DNA of 8,564 bases from positions 1 through 8,564 of the forward strand of contig CATOCA020000073.1 of NCBI GenBank assembly GCA_951406725.2, read 5' to 3'. This stretch comes from Octopus vulgaris. Taxonomy: Eukaryota. This document shows, one piece after another, positions 1 to 8,564 of the stretch. The translations under genes were made by a program, and so were the position numbers. Every line of letters starts with the position of its first letter. Within the stretch, counting starts at the first letter, position 1. The notes beneath the pieces were generated by a model that searched no databases, was not told the origin of the DNA, and saw only the letters and a program-made list of their open reading frames with translations.

Positions 1-1
1 A

Positions 2-313
2 CGATTTGAGAAGGATCGCTGGGAATCCATCAGGTCCAGCAGCTGAGTTTGTGTCAATCTCATCAATGGCTAGTGTGATATCATCTTCTTCGATGTTGAT
101 GTACTCAATTTTTGTCTCTTTGGCCGCTGGTAAAGTGGCAAAGAATTCTTCTGGGTTGTTTACTTGCCTGTGTCCTAGAGGTGTAGTGAACACACTTTGG
201 AACTGTTCGTTCAGTATTTCACTTATCCTCGTGGGATTTCCTGTGAGAGAGCCATCTTTTTGGAAGAGAGGTGCTATTCTCTGGTGCACTGTGGCTGTCT
301 CTTTGGCAAACTT
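2..313 (-). pseudogene. Frameshifted continuation of ORF2 (pre-reverse-transcriptase region), open to the window edge
   Basis: Manual translation gives 104 codons without a stop: KFAKETATVHQRIAPLFQKDGSLTGNPTRISEILNEQFQSVFTTPLGHRQVNNPEEFFATLPAAKETKIEYINIEEDDITLAIDEIDTNSAAGPDGFPAILLKS. The GPDG motif normally lies just before the RT core. Confidence 0.88.
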
Positions 314-1487
314 AAAAGAAAGCTTTAGGGTTTGATTTTATATTTTCTATTACCCAAGCTTCTTTATCTGCTCTCTCCTTTTCATGGGACTGATGTAGAC
401 TTTTCTCAGTTTCCGTTAGCATTCTTTCGAGCCGAGACTTCTCACCACTTTTGGTGTGCTTGCTCAGGCGGTTTGCAATCCTTGTCCGTCGTCTCATAAG
501 AATCCTCCTTTCTCTAGGGATCCTGTTTTTGTTCTTGTGTGTGCTGGCCCTGCACATTGGGACATATTTGTCACATATGGCTTGTATTATGGACATGAAG
601 TGTTTGTGTTTCATGTTTATGTCCGGTGTGGAGAGACATTCAGGCCAATCCTGTTTGAGGATCTCTTTCTCAATCGACTTCCAGTTGGCTTTATGAAAGT
701 TTAAGTTGGAGAGATAGTAGGTGCTTCGTATAGGCTGTGTGTCTGCGGGGGCATTTGTTCCATACATAGACAGCTCTATTATGTTGTGATCCGAGATCAT
801 TGTCGGCATCACATTAACATTATGGATAATATCCATATTGTTTGTGAAGCAGAGATCCAGTATATTATCTGTCCTTGTTGGTTGCAGAACTATTTGCTCC
901 ATGAAAGAGGTATTTGTGAGATGGAGCAGGGACTCCACCTGTGCCTGCTGATGGTGTGTCATCCCTGGGAGCATCTGCCCCCCAGGCCATTCCACATTGG
1001 GGAGGTTAAAGTCACCCATGAAGAATACACTGTTGTGCTGTTCAAGGTTGGTGAGGACTTCTCCTATTTTTGTTAGGCAGTCTTCAAACATGCCTGAGTG
1101 TTTTGGGGCGTCTGGTGGGCGATATGTAGTGCATATGACGATATTCAGTTGTCTTATGTGTACAATTTGAGTTTCACATACTGAGTTTGAATATGACAGC
1201 AGGACCTGGGGCGTGAGGTCATCTCGGATGTACATTGCAACTCCACCATGGCTCCTCCCTTTTCTATCTGTGCGTATGACTGCATATTGCGGCATGTGTA
1301 TTTCTGCATCACCTATATCGGGTTCAAGATGCGTTTCTGTGAGTGCCATGCATATAGCTTGATTGCATGTCACAAGGTCTCTCAGGAATGAAATTTTCTT
1401 TTTACAGTTTCCGCGCAGCAGCCCTCCTACATTCAGTAGAAATATTTTTGTGGTGTGTGTGTTGGTGTTGGTGTCTGTGGTGGCCAT
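312..1487 (-). CDS. LINE ORF2 N-terminal part: apurinic/apyrimidinic-like (APE) endonuclease domain plus linker
   Basis: The track ORF 312..1580 carries all APE motifs in order: IFLLNVGGL, ALTETHL, DRKGRSHGGVAMYI, YRPP, MGDFNLP, PTRTDNILDLCFTN, ISDHNII. The first in-frame ATG is at 1487 (MATTD...). The TAA at 314-312 results from an extra base in the A4 run at 314-317. Confidence 0.92.
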   Translation of the reverse strand: MATTDTNTNTHTTKIFLLNVGGLLRGNCKKKISFLRDLVTCNQAICMALTETHLEPDIGDAEIHMPQYAVIRTDRKGRSHGGVAMYIRDDLTPQVLLSYSNSVCETQIVHIRQLNIVICTTYRPPDAPKHSGMFEDCLTKIGEVLTNLEQHNSVFFMGDFNLPNVEWPGGQMLPGMTHHQQAQVESLLHLTNTSFMEQIVLQPTRTDNILDLCFTNNMDIIHNVNVMPTMISDHNIIELSMYGTNAPADTQPIRSTYYLSNLNFHKANWKSIEKEILKQDWPECLSTPDINMKHKHFMSIIQAICDKYVPMCRASTHKNKNRIPRERRILMRRRTRIANRLSKHTKSGEKSRLERMLTETEKSLHQSHEKERADKEAWVIENIKSNPKAFF

Positions 1488-2065
1488 CCTGCATCTGTTG
1501 GAGGTGGCCTTATGTGGTGGTAGTTCCAGCTTTGTGCTTGTAGCCAGGTCAGCTGCTGAACAATTTTTTGTGCCATGCACAAAAAGACTGCTGTTCAGCT
1601 GCCGCCCTTCTCACATCTGGGTGAAGCTGGCCACCTGTTGGGTTTCTGCTCACCACATCTGTATACCGTCTTTCAGTAGTGGTCAGTGCGCTTTTTTCCC
1701 TTCTTTTAACTTTTTGTTTTGTTTTTGTTCTCCCTGAGGGGGAGAACTGTCTAACGTCCGTGCGGTTTTGGTAGGGCCTCCGATGTGCAAAGCGACAGTT
1801 TGCACCTTCAACGCCGTACCAGCAGACCCCCTCAGGTAGAATTTGCAGGTGTTTCTTTCCCTGGCCTTACAGTTTTGCTGGGGTCCCTCTGATTTCTCTG
1901 GACAGGGCTTCCTTTAGCCTTGATTCTGTCACCCATTACCTCCTGCTTCCCATCAATTCCAGGGTGCCTTTCCTTTCTTGCGGCCATCGCACCTCTTTGG
2001 TCTTCAGTTGTGGTGTTGGAAGCTGGACATGTGTCATCGTTTCCCTGTGTTCCAGGCTTCTCCAT
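1433..2065 (-). pseudogene. Putative LINE ORF1 (about 211 aa after repairing three 1-nt deletions) with a CCCH-type zinc finger
   Basis: Pieces in successive frames: [11 protein letters not shown]...KTVRPGK, then [10 protein letters not shown], then [18 protein letters not shown]...RRYTDVVSRNP...EQQSF, then LCMAQKIVQQLTWLQ...PQKYFY* (TGA 1435-1433). Each join needs one extra base in a homopolymer (about 1856-1858, 1827-1831, 1581-1585). The position of the first join is not uniquely fixed. The start may be 5'-truncated. Confidence 0.62.
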
Positions 2066-2114
2066 TTGGCTTTGGATGCTTTCCTCATCATGTGTATATA
2101 TATATCCAGTGTAT

Positions 2115-2285
<171 letters not shown>

Positions 2286-2398
2286 TACATATATATACAC
2301 ATACACATATATACATATATATACACACATATATACATATATATACACATATATATATATATACACATATATATACACATATATATATATTTATATAT

Positions 2399-2607
<209 letters not shown>

Positions 2608-2640
2608 TATACATATATATATATATACATATATATATAT

Positions 2641-2691
<51 letters not shown>

Positions 2692-2710
2692 TATATATAT
2701 ATACATATAT

Positions 2711-2927
<217 letters not shown>

Positions 2928-2932
2928 TACAC

Positions 2933-3035
<103 letters not shown>

Positions 3036-3160
3036 TATATTTATATATATACATATATATATATACATATATATATACATATATATATACATATATATAT
3101 ATACATATATATATATACATATATATATATACATATATATATATACATATATATATATAC

Positions 3161-3195
<35 letters not shown>

Positions 3196-3196
3196 A

Positions 3197-3265
3197 AATA
3201 AATATAAGAGAGTGGTCACTATATGGCTCACTCTAGCACCAGTTAATCCAAAAGGTTTCAACCAC
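3197..3265 (+). other. Short unique island: AATAAA, hairpin and GTTAATCCA...TCAACC; possible 3' tail remnant of a Penelope-like repeat
   Basis: AATAAA at 3197-3202. Hairpin AGAGTG-GTCA-ctata-TGGC-t-CACTCT at 3209-3234. The layout parallels 7806-7872. Confidence 0.35.
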
Positions 3266-3269
3266 ATAC

Positions 3270-3302
<33 letters not shown>

Positions 3303-3359
3303 CATATACATATATATATATATACATACATATACATATATATATATACATACATATAC

Positions 3360-3434
<75 letters not shown>

Positions 3435-3435
3435 C

Positions 3436-3466
<31 letters not shown>

Positions 3467-3467
3467 C

Positions 3468-3584
<117 letters not shown>

Positions 3585-3595
3585 TACATATATAT

Positions 3596-4488
<893 letters not shown>

Positions 4489-4550
4489 TATATACATATA
4501 TATATATATACATATATATATTTACATATATATATATACATATATATATT

Positions 4551-4650
<100 letters not shown>

Positions 4651-4651
4651 A

Positions 4652-5059
4652 GGCGCAGGAGTGGCTGTGTGGTAAGTAGCTTGCTAACCAACCACATGGT
4701 TCCGGGTTCAATCCCACTGCGTGGCATCTTGGGCAAGTGTCTTCTACTATAGCCCCGGGCCGACCAATGCCTTCTGAGTGGATTTGGTAGACGGAAACTG
4801 AAAGAAGCCCGTCGTATATATGTATATATATATGTGTTTATGTGTTTGTGTGTCTGTGTTTGTCCCCCCCCAACATCGCTTGACAACCGATGCTGGTGTG
4901 TTTACGTCCCGTTACTTAGCGGTTCGGCAAAAGAGACCGATAGAATAAGTACTGGGATTACAAAGAATAAGTCCCAGGGTCACATTGCTCGACTAAAGGC
5001 GGTGCTCCAGCATGGCTTCGCAGTCAAATGACTGAAACAAGTAAAGAAAGTAAAAGAGA

Positions 5060-5060
<1 letters not shown>
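4652..5060 (+). mobile_element. Full-length tRNA-derived SINE (about 410 bp) resembling octopus OK/OR-type SINEs; subfamily not assigned
   Basis: tRNA-like head with Pol III A and B boxes, a CORE-like CTTGGGCAAGT (4728-4738), an internal TA/TG tract (about 4815-4863), a 3' stem-loop CAGTC-aaat-GACTG (5021-5034) and an A-rich AGTAAAG-like repeated tail. The family resemblance is from memory, not from a search. Confidence 0.9.
4662..4715 (+). promoter_or_regulatory. Internal RNA polymerase III type-2 promoter of the SINE (A box and B box)
   Basis: A box TGGCTGTGTGG at 4662-4672 (one mismatch to TGGCNNAGTGG). B box GGTTCAATCCC at 4705-4715 (matches GGTTCRANNCC). Spacing is tRNA-like. Confidence 0.85.
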
Positions 5061-6567
<1,507 letters not shown>

Positions 6568-6876
6568 CTAGACCTCCTAAAGTGTAGACACGAATCTGTA
6601 GGTACGAGTACGTATGTGTATATACGTGAACGTATGTAGATGTTTGTATGTATGAATATAACGCGTGCGTACGTGTATGTGTATAGAGTGTACGAATGGG
6701 TGTGAATGTACGTGCTAATGAATGTGCGTTTGGGAATGAGTACTTGCCTTCTAGTAGACAGACAAATGGACATGCTGCCATAGCCAGGATCCCTTAGCTC
6801 TAGCGATGAAAGATAACAAAAGTAATAAATGAAGATAATAAAATTAAAATTAGGGGAATGGGCCTGTATTGGATTG

Positions 6877-6911
<35 letters not shown>

Positions 6912-7509: not shown

Positions 7510-7600
7510 TTATATATATTTTATTTTTATTTATTTTTTTTATATTTTTTTTTATTTTTATTTATTTTTTTTAATTTTTTTAATTTTATTTTTTTAATTT
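6877..7600. repeat. Degenerate (TG/TA)n purine-pyrimidine repeat, then (TA)n and a T-rich low-complexity tract
   Basis: Directly visible. A short unique stretch lies at about 7430-7470 and the T-rich run at about 7505-7600. Confidence 0.93.
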
Positions 7601-7714
7601 ATCTATTCTTTCATCTAACTTACCACTGACTCCTTCGGCCTCCCCCAAGTATGATATTTTGCGCTATGCCTACCCCCAAAAAGTCCCCCACCACTCCTTA
7701 AACCTGCCTAAATG

Positions 7715-7721
7715 TATAAAT
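7715..7721 (+). promoter_or_regulatory. Candidate TATA box upstream of the hammerhead
   Basis: TATAAAT starts 29 nt before stem I, so a Pol II start would fall at the ribozyme 5' end. The motif alone is weak in AT-rich DNA. Confidence 0.4.
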
Positions 7722-7743
7722 GCTAATACAATTCATGTTAAAT

Positions 7744-7795
7744 AGCTTCCTGAAGATTTCTCTTAGATGAGAACAGTACTAGTCCTGTAGAAGCT
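7744..7795 (+). ncRNA. Minimal type I hammerhead ribozyme motif (one A short in the GAAA core as assembled)
   Basis: Stem I AGCTTC (7744-7749) pairs perfectly with GAAGCT (7790-7795). Core CTGAAGA at 7750-7756. Weak stem II at 7757-7770. GAAC instead of GAAAC at 7771-7774. Stem III ACAG...CTGT lies within the near-palindrome ACAGTACTAGTCCTGT (7773-7788). Cleavage triplet GTA at 7787-7789. Confidence 0.7.
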
Positions 7796-7805
7796 CCTTC
7801 TATAT

Positions 7806-7811
7806 AATAAA
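7806..7811 (+). promoter_or_regulatory. Candidate polyadenylation signal AATAAA downstream of the hammerhead
   Basis: AATAAA lies 10 nt after stem I'. It is supported only by context. Confidence 0.4.
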
Positions 7812-7882
7812 TTAATTTTACTCAGCTATGTATTGAGTACCTTACTTACTGTGGTTAACCCACGAATCAACCCGGGACCTAC

Positions 7883-7887
7883 ATATA

Positions 7888-7940
<53 letters not shown>
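7883..7940. repeat. (TA)n microsatellite between the PLE-like fragment and LINE copy B
   Basis: Directly visible. Confidence 0.95.
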
Positions 7941-7942
<2 letters not shown>

Positions 7943-8564
7943 TGATTGATTGATTGATTCTAGTTTCAGCTTATGAGCTGTGGCCATGCTGGTGCCATTT
8001 GGTGTTGCTACTTGGTTTCACTTCATGGAGGCTTTCTAGCAACTGCTATATTGGTGCATGAGAGAGTTCGATGCAGCTGCCTCATCTACCACCCTCCTGC
8101 CGTGAAGTTGGTTCATCTGGGACACCTGACAGGAAGAGATCCAGCTTCATATTTTAAAGACATCTGTATCCACCATGCAGGTCTCTCAGGTTCTTCGGGA
8201 GGATATTGAAGAGCTATTGGGCCTCGGAAGCCCAGGCTATCACAGAATCTTGTCCTACATCTTGATGGAAGGTTTGGAGTCCTAGGCACCACGCAGTGGC
8301 AACCCGGATTCTGGCATTTGCGTAACTCTCGATGCCAAAGTTTCAGGACACTTCCCTCCAGGATCTTCCAGATGTATATTATGGCATATCTTTCCCGCCT
8401 AATATAATATAATTTTAATGTCTTGAGTCTTTCCCAGTAGCACATTCTGCATAGAATATCTATCTTTGTGTAGCTTCGTTATCGCCTCAATTTTATCAAC
8501 TTACATATGATGACCATATAGAGCAATTAAGTGGCTTATACAAGTGTCTATCCAGAGGACCATC
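7941..8564 (-). mobile_element. CR1-type LINE copy B: 3' end with ORF2 C-terminus, short 3' UTR, terminal stem-loop and (ATCA)n tail; runs off the right edge
   Basis: CR1-type C-terminal peptides, a terminal hairpin CAGCT-cata-AGCTG (7980-7967) and a tandem tetranucleotide tail seen as (ATTG)n at 7941-7959. CR1 elements typically end in a hairpin plus microsatellite rather than poly(A). Confidence 0.9.
8023..8564 (-). pseudogene. Multiply frameshifted C-terminus of LINE ORF2 (post-RT region)
   Basis: Fragments across frames: YWERLKTLKLY, RRERYAIIYIWKILEG, NFGIESYANAR, HCVVPRTPNLPSRCRTRFCDSLGFRGP, LFNILPKNLRDLHG, KLDLFLSGVPDEPT, AAASNSLMHQ. Likely stop TGA at 8025-8023. Confidence 0.85.

What the first reader, a model, noticed from the sequence alone, without database searches (positions are those of the whole stretch)
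4998..5045. SINE 3' end matches the CR1 LINE 3' end at 7961-7996, with compensatory stem changes: a LINE/SINE partner pair in one window
Seen: the SINE reads CCAGCATGGC-ttcg-CAGTC-aaat-GACTG-AAAC-aag (5007-5041). LINE copy B on the minus strand reads CCAGCATGGC-ca-CAGCT-cata-AGCTG-AAAC-tag (from 7992 down). The 10-mer and CTGAAAC are identical, and the stem differs at two base pairs while pairing is kept (CAGTC/GACTG versus CAGCT/AGCTG). Known: stringent LINEs such as CR1 and L2 recognise a 3' stem-loop that partner SINEs borrow. Inference: this CR1 lineage or a close relative mobilises the SINE. The tails differ (AGTAAAG-like versus ATCA), so the true donor may be a sister family.
Basis: partly seen in the sequence, partly recalled or inferred. 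Interest (0 to 1): 0.7.

Follow-up and report, generated by a model that had tools for sequence, protein, structure and literature searches.

The report
Octopus-type SINE borrows a LINE's tail
A short non-coding jumping element in this likely octopus DNA ends in the same 40-base signal as an abundant CR1-type LINE retrotransposon, so it likely borrows the copying enzyme of that LINE or a close sister; such pairs are well known in other animals, including bivalves.

Summary
The SINE (4652-5060, +) and LINE copy B (8564-7941, -) share a 10-mer and CTGAAAC around a 5-bp hairpin at the extreme 3' end of each; 0 of 10,000 shuffles of the last 60 nt score as high. Contigs from four public runs show that this segment is the normal end of an abundant LINE family, not a stray SINE piece. 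They also show that copy B has lost about 5 nt: other copies read GGCGGTGCC before the 10-mer, the SINE GGCGGTGCT, so 18 of 19 bases match there and a second, upstream hairpin is shared. Weak points: the distal loop (3 of 4 bases) and the terminal repeats differ; the 'compensatory' stem changes rest on two sequences and can also be aligned as two indels; only one SINE copy was seen; mobilisation was not tested. Verdict: a stringent-type SINE/CR1 tail-sharing pair, with the donor this lineage or a sister family. The kind is textbook, and bivalve SINE/CR1 pairs with compensatory stems are published (PMC4824008). Nine paper searches found no octopus pair.

The parts
4652..4730 (+). SINE head, likely tRNA-derived Pol III promoter: A-box-like at 4662 (1 mismatch), B box at 4706
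   Evidence: ARAGORN finds no tRNA and Rfam lists no tRNA among 24 weak matches
4727..4997 (+). SINE body; first 20 nt resemble the start of the CORE domain of bivalve CORE-SINEs; internal TA/TG microsatellite at 4815-4865; no TTTT on the sense strand of the whole SINE
   Evidence: by-eye comparison with the supplement of PMC4824008
4997..5018 (+). SINE tail, predicted upstream hairpin (GGC-G-GUGC / GCAU-G-GC, loop UCCA); contains the shared 19-nt block 4998-5016
   Evidence: pair probabilities 0.95-1.0 for 7 of 8 pairs, 0.67 for the outermost; LINE-family match
5021..5041 (+). SINE tail, predicted distal hairpin CAGTC-AAAT-GACTG plus AAACAAG
5042..5060 (+). SINE terminal A-rich degenerate repeat, followed directly by (TA)n
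8036..8564 (-). LINE copy B: frameshifted C-terminal part of ORF2 (residues 880-1025 of 1033 of P0001), cut by the window end; stop at 8038-8036
7960..8035 (-). LINE B 3' UTR with the shared block; copy B has one base at 7993 where most family contigs have six, which removes the 5' arm of the upstream hairpin; distal hairpin at 7980-7967
   Evidence: (tables 3 and 7)
7941..7959 (-). LINE B terminal (ATCA)n repeat, 4.8 units, followed directly by (TA)n
   Evidence: same arrangement in the X13 contig
1..2095 (-). LINE copy A: 5' part (broken ORF1 region, APE endonuclease, start of the RT-proximal region); same best relative (P0001) as copy B; its 3' end lies outside the window

Best explanation
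The SINE's last 45 bases match the 3' untranslated end of an abundant APE-RT LINE family of likely CR1 type, and the SINE likely uses this borrowed tail to be copied by the ORF2 protein of this LINE lineage, either this family or a close sister. Shown: shared sequence at both 3' ends; the segment is the family's normal end; the shared block is 18 of 19 nt plus CAG..CTGAAAC.AG. Predicted: both RNAs fold into two adjacent hairpins ahead of a short terminal repeat. Inferred: a Pol III transcript from the tRNA-like head reads through the TTTT-free body; ORF2 binds the hairpins in trans, nicks target DNA and reverse transcribes from the terminal repeat. The SINE's distal hairpin and repeat have diverged from this family's, so the tail was probably captured from an ancestor or sister family.
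For: End-restricted shuffles 0, 4 and 3 of 10,000. Family loose ends at 7992 in 95, 89 and 74 contigs of X4, X5 and X7 read GGCACCGCC on +, and the window's T at 7993 is a minority letter (G in 29, 30, 16 and 1 contigs of the four runs). One contig spans ORF2 to tail. SINE end folds at z = -2.61, 4 of 200 shuffles as good. A box, B box and no TTTT. APE and RT, no RNase H, in 3 of 3 relatives scanned for RT and 2 of 3 for APE. Precedent: bivalve CORE- and V-SINEs share tails and compensatory stems with CR1-14_CGi (PMC4824008, passages); ORF2 of stringent L2 LINEs binds the 3' stem-loop (PMC4176376, passages). Sister families exist: P0002, P0003 and P0025 are 71, 71 and 66% identical to P0001 over the best local alignment, the next group about 52% or less.
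Against: Distal loop differs at 3 of 4 bases, and in zebrafish L2 elements a loop swap sharply cut retrotransposition while a stem swap was tolerated. Terminal repeats differ (A-rich versus ATCA). Hairpin plus flank only 13 of 21 identical. LINE copy B itself folds no better than shuffles (z = -0.74, 38 of 200), and with longer context neither end is significant (z = -0.94 and 0.18). Only one SINE copy was examined; no target-site duplication was found. No stem variant of the LINE appeared among the 40 difference rows shown, with 31 rows hidden, so covariation within the family was not seen. CR1 membership rests on domain content and recalled motifs, not on a tree with named references.
Confidence: 0.85

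Rival explanations
1. The tail is homologous but the family of copy B is not the working partner: a sister or extinct CR1 family with the SINE-type distal hairpin and an A-rich repeat does or did the copying. This is a sub-case of the best explanation and overlaps with it.
For: Loop and terminal repeat differ; loop specificity in L2 elements; related families at 66-71% exist in the protein collection, hosts mostly unnamed; O. vulgaris has 13 recently active CR1 families (PMC13282606, Table 1).
Against: The upstream block is 18 of 19 identical with this family; the family is very abundant in three runs; no LINE with the SINE-type hairpin was seen, though the one read-laying run was not built to find it.
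Confidence: 0.45
2. The SINE once took its tail from CR1 but is now copied by another LINE, such as RTE, R4-Dong, L1-Tx1 or Nimb, that reads the A-rich end.
For: A-rich terminal repeat unlike the LINE's; RTE-BovB and Dong-R4 are abundant in octopuses (PMC8967140; PMC13282606); a 10-nt word across the SINE's distal loop and stem also occurs in the tail of BivaMeta-SINE1 (by eye), a group assigned to Nimb.
Against: Both hairpins stay fully paired in the SINE, as expected if still recognised; the rest of the Nimb-type tail is absent; no sequence from another clade explains the 19-nt block.
Confidence: 0.1
3. The likeness is chance, or the segment at 7941-8000 is a separate SINE fragment attached to copy B.
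For: Raw score 28 is reached by 21 of 3000 whole-element shuffles and by an unrelated TG-rich match.
Against: 0 of 10,000 end-restricted shuffles; a contig from another study spans ORF2, motif and tail; the family match is longer than the window's.
Confidence: 0.03

Closest known systems
BivaCORE-SINE1 and BivaV-SINE2 with CR1-14_CGi (Nishihara et al. 2016, PMC4824008; passages and 2 of 4 parts of the supplement read); Vhc_1 SINEs with CR1-1/CR1-14_CGi (PMC4758252, passages)
   Same: Mollusc tRNA-headed SINE sharing a short 3' tail with a CR1-group LINE; predicted stem-loops with compensatory changes; the bivalve CORE-SINE head-proximal body resembles this SINE's over about 20 nt.
   Different: By eye the bivalve tails are AT-rich and do not contain the 19-nt block or CTGAAAC; only a short AGCT-like stem core recurs. 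So this is a separate tail, in another mollusc class.
HCD-SINE / CR1-Zenon, CR1, L2 and Nimb pairs of bivalves (Martelossi et al. 2024, PMC11481361; passages and supplementary figure 1 read)
   Same: Shared 3' ends of 35-61 bp at 72-95% identity; the present match is of the same length class.
   Different: Bivalves only: the main text has 0 occurrences of 'octopus' or 'cephalopod'. Whether this LINE is CR1 or CR1-Zenon was not tested.
Stringent L2 LINEs UnaL2, ZfL2-1 and ZfL2-2 (Hayashi et al. 2014, PMC4176376; passages read)
   Same: Supplies the mechanism: ORF2 binds a 3' stem-loop through the region between endonuclease and RT.
   Different: L2 clade, one stem-loop, tested in cells; here a CR1-type LINE, two predicted hairpins, nothing tested at the bench.
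Octopus SINEs OR1 and OR2 (Ohshima and Okada 1994; not seen, known only through citing passages) and the tRNA-Core and tRNA-Deu classes of octopus genomes (PMC8967140, passages)
   Same: Likely the same animal group; tRNA-like head and CORE-like start. I recall this element as one of the abundant octopus SINEs; that comes from no call.
   Different: No OR1 or OR2 sequence could be obtained, so identity is untested; none of the passages read names a LINE partner for them.

Membership tests
Stringent-type SINE/LINE pair | SINE 3' end homologous to LINE 3' end | tested here: met
   extended to 18 of 19 nt upstream
Stringent-type SINE/LINE pair | The shared segment is the LINE family's normal 3' terminus | tested here: met
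   (X13 contig 7941-8480; continuous cover in X4, X5, X7); ORF2 end at 8045-8036
Stringent-type SINE/LINE pair | Stem-loop kept in both tails | tested here: met
   predicted only; the upstream hairpin is broken in copy B and inferred by eye for the family
Stringent-type SINE/LINE pair | Covariation of the stem across many copies or families | tested here: inconclusive
   two sequences only; indel alignment competes; no stem variants among 40 rows shown, 31 hidden; collection scans gave no further copies
Stringent-type SINE/LINE pair | Same terminal repeat unit (common in such pairs, not universal; recalled) | tested here: not met
   A-rich degenerate repeat versus (ATCA)n; counts against this exact family as donor
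Stringent-type SINE/LINE pair | Trans-mobilisation of the SINE tail by the LINE's ORF2 | not testable with these tools
   needs a cell assay
tRNA-derived SINE | Internal Pol III A and B boxes, no internal terminator, under 700 nt | tested here: met
   A-box-like 4662, B box 4706; no TTTT in 409 nt; no long non-repeat ORF
tRNA-derived SINE | Head homologous to a tRNA | tested here: inconclusive
   ARAGORN 0 genes; no tRNA among Rfam matches; ends and a T-arm-like stem pair in the fold, z = -0.52
tRNA-derived SINE | Many dispersed copies, target-site duplications | not tested
   no genome held; the single read-laying run went to the LINE; no duplication of 6 nt or more found, flanks are (TA)n
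CR1 clade LINE | APE endonuclease plus RT, no RNase H, no C-terminal zinc knuckle | tested here: met
   knuckle pattern in 0 of 163 relatives
CR1 clade LINE | CR1-type rather than L2-type C-terminal motif (both motifs recalled) | tested here: met
   strict CR1-type pattern in 80 of 163 relatives, L2-type in 1 of 163; degenerate in copy B but intact in family loose ends at 8400-8401
CR1 clade LINE | RT groups with named CR1 (or CR1-Zenon) references in a tree | not tested
   no clade-named reference among the hits
CORE-SINE (OR1/OR2) | About 60-nt CORE domain behind the head | tested here: inconclusive
   about 20 nt at 4727-4747 resemble BivaCORE-SINE1 by eye; the rest does not obviously; OR1/OR2 sequences unavailable

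The most novel reading that the evidence does not exclude
This CR1 lineage is the so far unnamed engine of the octopus SINE explosion (SINEs are 11.6% of the O. vulgaris genome, PMC13282606), and it recognises a two-hairpin tail in which the upstream hairpin is the fixed signal while the distal hairpin tolerates stem and loop change, unlike the single loop-specific stem-loop of L2 elements.
Probability: 0.35. Interest if true: 0.45.

Novelty: new member of a known kind. Interest (0 to 1): 0.24.

Why it matters
SINEs make up a large share of octopus genomes, and they expanded together with LINEs about 18 million years ago in O. vulgaris (PMC13282606). Attention has gone to RTE and Dong-R4 LINEs (PMC9115989). 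Naming a CR1 lineage as the SINE's donor would tell annotators which LINE to watch and would give a defined RNA signal to test. It changes no general principle: SINE/CR1 tail sharing is textbook and already shown in bivalves.

Tried and rejected
No genome is held, so no genome-wide consensus or age profile was possible. Pattern scans for further tails: 1 hit in viral contigs, 76 in metagenomes; none of these 77 loci matched the SINE or LINE B by blastn or the ORF2 proteins by tblastn, and 5 of 77 had a paired inner stem, so all were treated as chance. GTDB scans gave 0 and 0; further viral scans 0 and 1 (the one hit was not examined). No phage record matched the SINE. The ORF2 alignment found 5 weak viral-contig loci at 26-32% identity, not followed. 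A score of 42 against pooled 'unique' window DNA was dropped: region by region the high scores (37, 35) come from TA runs. Positions 8483-8564 had no contig cover; not interpreted. Depth differences along the LINE were not used, since contig depth is not a copy number. 'Twhin', a SINE name I recalled, gave 0 papers; the 2015 octopus genome paper is not held. No OR1/OR2 sequence in the supplements searched (one of five files not searched; none readable). Supplements not seen (the FASTA and one PDF of PMC11481361, the SINEBase alignments, the Zenodo library and supplement of PMC13282606) could name this SINE or its partner. Earlier scan notes held nothing for this place or these sequences.

Full report
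Setting. The window is largely TA microsatellite (3236 of 8564 bases in perfect runs) with three retroelements. LINE copy A (1-2095, minus) carries an APE endonuclease and is 66-68% identical to residues 1-524 of protein P0001. LINE copy B (8564-7941, minus) is a frameshifted ORF2 end matching residues 880-1025 of the same 1033-residue protein; both copies have P0001 as best relative among 163 proteins. The only organism-named relative is from Argonauta hians, so the host is likely an octopod; that is an inference. No genome is held. The SINE spans 4652-5060 (plus), with an A-box-like word at 4662, a B box at 4706 and no TTTT on its sense strand. ARAGORN and Rfam do not call a tRNA, so the tRNA origin is inferred from the boxes.

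The observation. The 10-mer occurs only at 5007 (+) and 7992 (-). Both 5-bp distal stems are predicted with high probability. Whole-element significance is modest (21 of 3000 shuffles), and an unrelated TG-rich match scores as high. Restricted to the two 3' ends, 0, 4 and 3 of 10,000 shuffles reach the score for 60, 80 and 100 nt.

Is the segment the LINE's own end? Yes. The ORF2 stop lies at 8038-8036, leaving a 3' UTR of about 75 nt before (ATCA)n. I laid contigs of 4 of the 24 listed runs, from four coded studies, on 7937-8564. In X13 a single 1368-nt contig covers 7941-8480 with 11 other letters and 28 gap letters and continues into TA repeats; it has family-type letters, so it is not copy B itself. 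X4, X5 and X7 gave 4170, 7633 and 3191 contigs covering 26 of 30 bins without a gap from the tail into ORF2. One of these runs may be the window's source, but not all four.

The match is longer than seen in the window. At 7992, 95, 89 and 74 contigs break off from copy B and continue as GGCACCGCCATTTG on the plus strand, and T7993 is a minority letter. Copy B has therefore lost about 5 nt. On the element strand the family reads GGCGGTGCC before the 10-mer and the SINE reads GGCGGTGCT (4998-5006): 18 of 19 identical. The single difference falls in its loop, so by inspection the family forms the same hairpin; I did not fold a family sequence. Copy B, lacking the arm, folds no better than shuffles (z = -0.74). 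The agreement of these loose ends is only 0.63-0.66 over 30 letters with median length 10-11, so only the first dozen letters are reliable.

Limits. The distal hairpin and flank are 13 of 21 identical, with 3 of 4 loop bases different. The pairwise aligner explains the stem difference by two indels while MAFFT leaves it ungapped, so pairwise compensatory substitution is one reading of two. No stem variants appeared in the 40 rows shown (31 hidden). Terminal repeats differ. I saw one SINE copy only; scans of viral, metagenome and GTDB collections brought no others. All element ends in the window abut (TA)n, as does the X13 contig's, but the background is too TA-rich to read this as shared targeting.

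Mechanism. In stringent L2 LINEs, ORF2 binds the 3' stem-loop through the region between endonuclease and RT; stem swaps were tolerated and loop changes were not (PMC4176376, passages). By analogy the SINE RNA would present the borrowed hairpins to ORF2 of this lineage and be copied by target-primed reverse transcription. The changed distal loop and repeat suggest capture from an ancestor or sister. Related ORF2 proteins at 66-71% exist, and O. vulgaris has 13 recently active CR1 families. I put 0.85 on 'this lineage', split about evenly between this family and a sister. The CR1 label rests on APE plus RT without RNase H, no C-terminal knuckle (0 of 163) and a recalled CR1-type motif (80 of 163, L2-type 1 of 163); no tree with named references was built.

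What is known. SINE/LINE tail sharing is general, with CR1 and RTE clades predominant (PMC3747384, passages and part of Table 1). In bivalves, CORE- and V-SINEs share tails and compensatory stem-loops with CR1-14_CGi (PMC4824008; PMC4758252), later assigned to CR1-Zenon (PMC11481361). Those tails differ in sequence from this one (by eye). Octopus papers count SINE and LINE classes without naming a partner in what I read: PMC8967140 (passages, 0 occurrences of 'partner'), PMC13282606 (parts 1-2 of 3), PMC9115989 and PMC9068888 (passages), PMC10294476 (passages). PMC5786205, PMC5804259 and PMC3531059 (passages) add none. Nine searches found no octopus pair. The original OR1/OR2 paper, the 2005 review by the same authors, Repbase, Dfam and SINEBase entries were not seen and may already record it. 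Earlier scan notes list similar pairs in diatoms and a fungus; they are unchecked and show only that the scan meets this kind often.

Verdict. The modest added value is a candidate donor for an octopus SINE and a two-hairpin tail. Interest 0.24.

Noticed in passing
window 3786-3962: A perfect 177-nt poly(A) run sits inside the TA microsatellite; possibly a long-read sequencing artefact, as may be part of the 4.4-kb TA array.
   Followed up: no
window 1700-1900 (minus): The broken ORF1 region of LINE A shows Cys/His spacing suggestive of a CCCH-type zinc finger split over two frames; Pfam found nothing in the 105-aa piece tested.
   Followed up: partly
window 4790-4865: Mid-SINE, ACTGAAAGAAG resembles the terminal ACTGAAACAAG and is followed by a TA/TG microsatellite; the SINE may be a two-part element whose left arm has a decayed tail. 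Could be chance.
   Followed up: no
window 2095, 4651, 5061, 7940: The 5' end of LINE A, both ends of the SINE and the 3' end of LINE B all abut (TA)n; the X13 contig's LINE end does too. Possible shared preference for TA repeats, not tested against background.
   Followed up: partly
window 3195-3265, 6560-6880, 7600-7885: Short non-microsatellite islands without similarity to the SINE; not identified.
   Followed up: no
L078 (viral contig, 1501-4582): A contig filed as viral matches the LINE RT region at 32% over a 3-kb span; may be a misfiled eukaryotic retroelement.
   Followed up: no
loose ends at 7992: Beyond the first 14 letters the loose ends turn T-rich with low agreement, which may mean that other elements with different upstream sequence also carry the LINE-type tail.
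   Followed up: no
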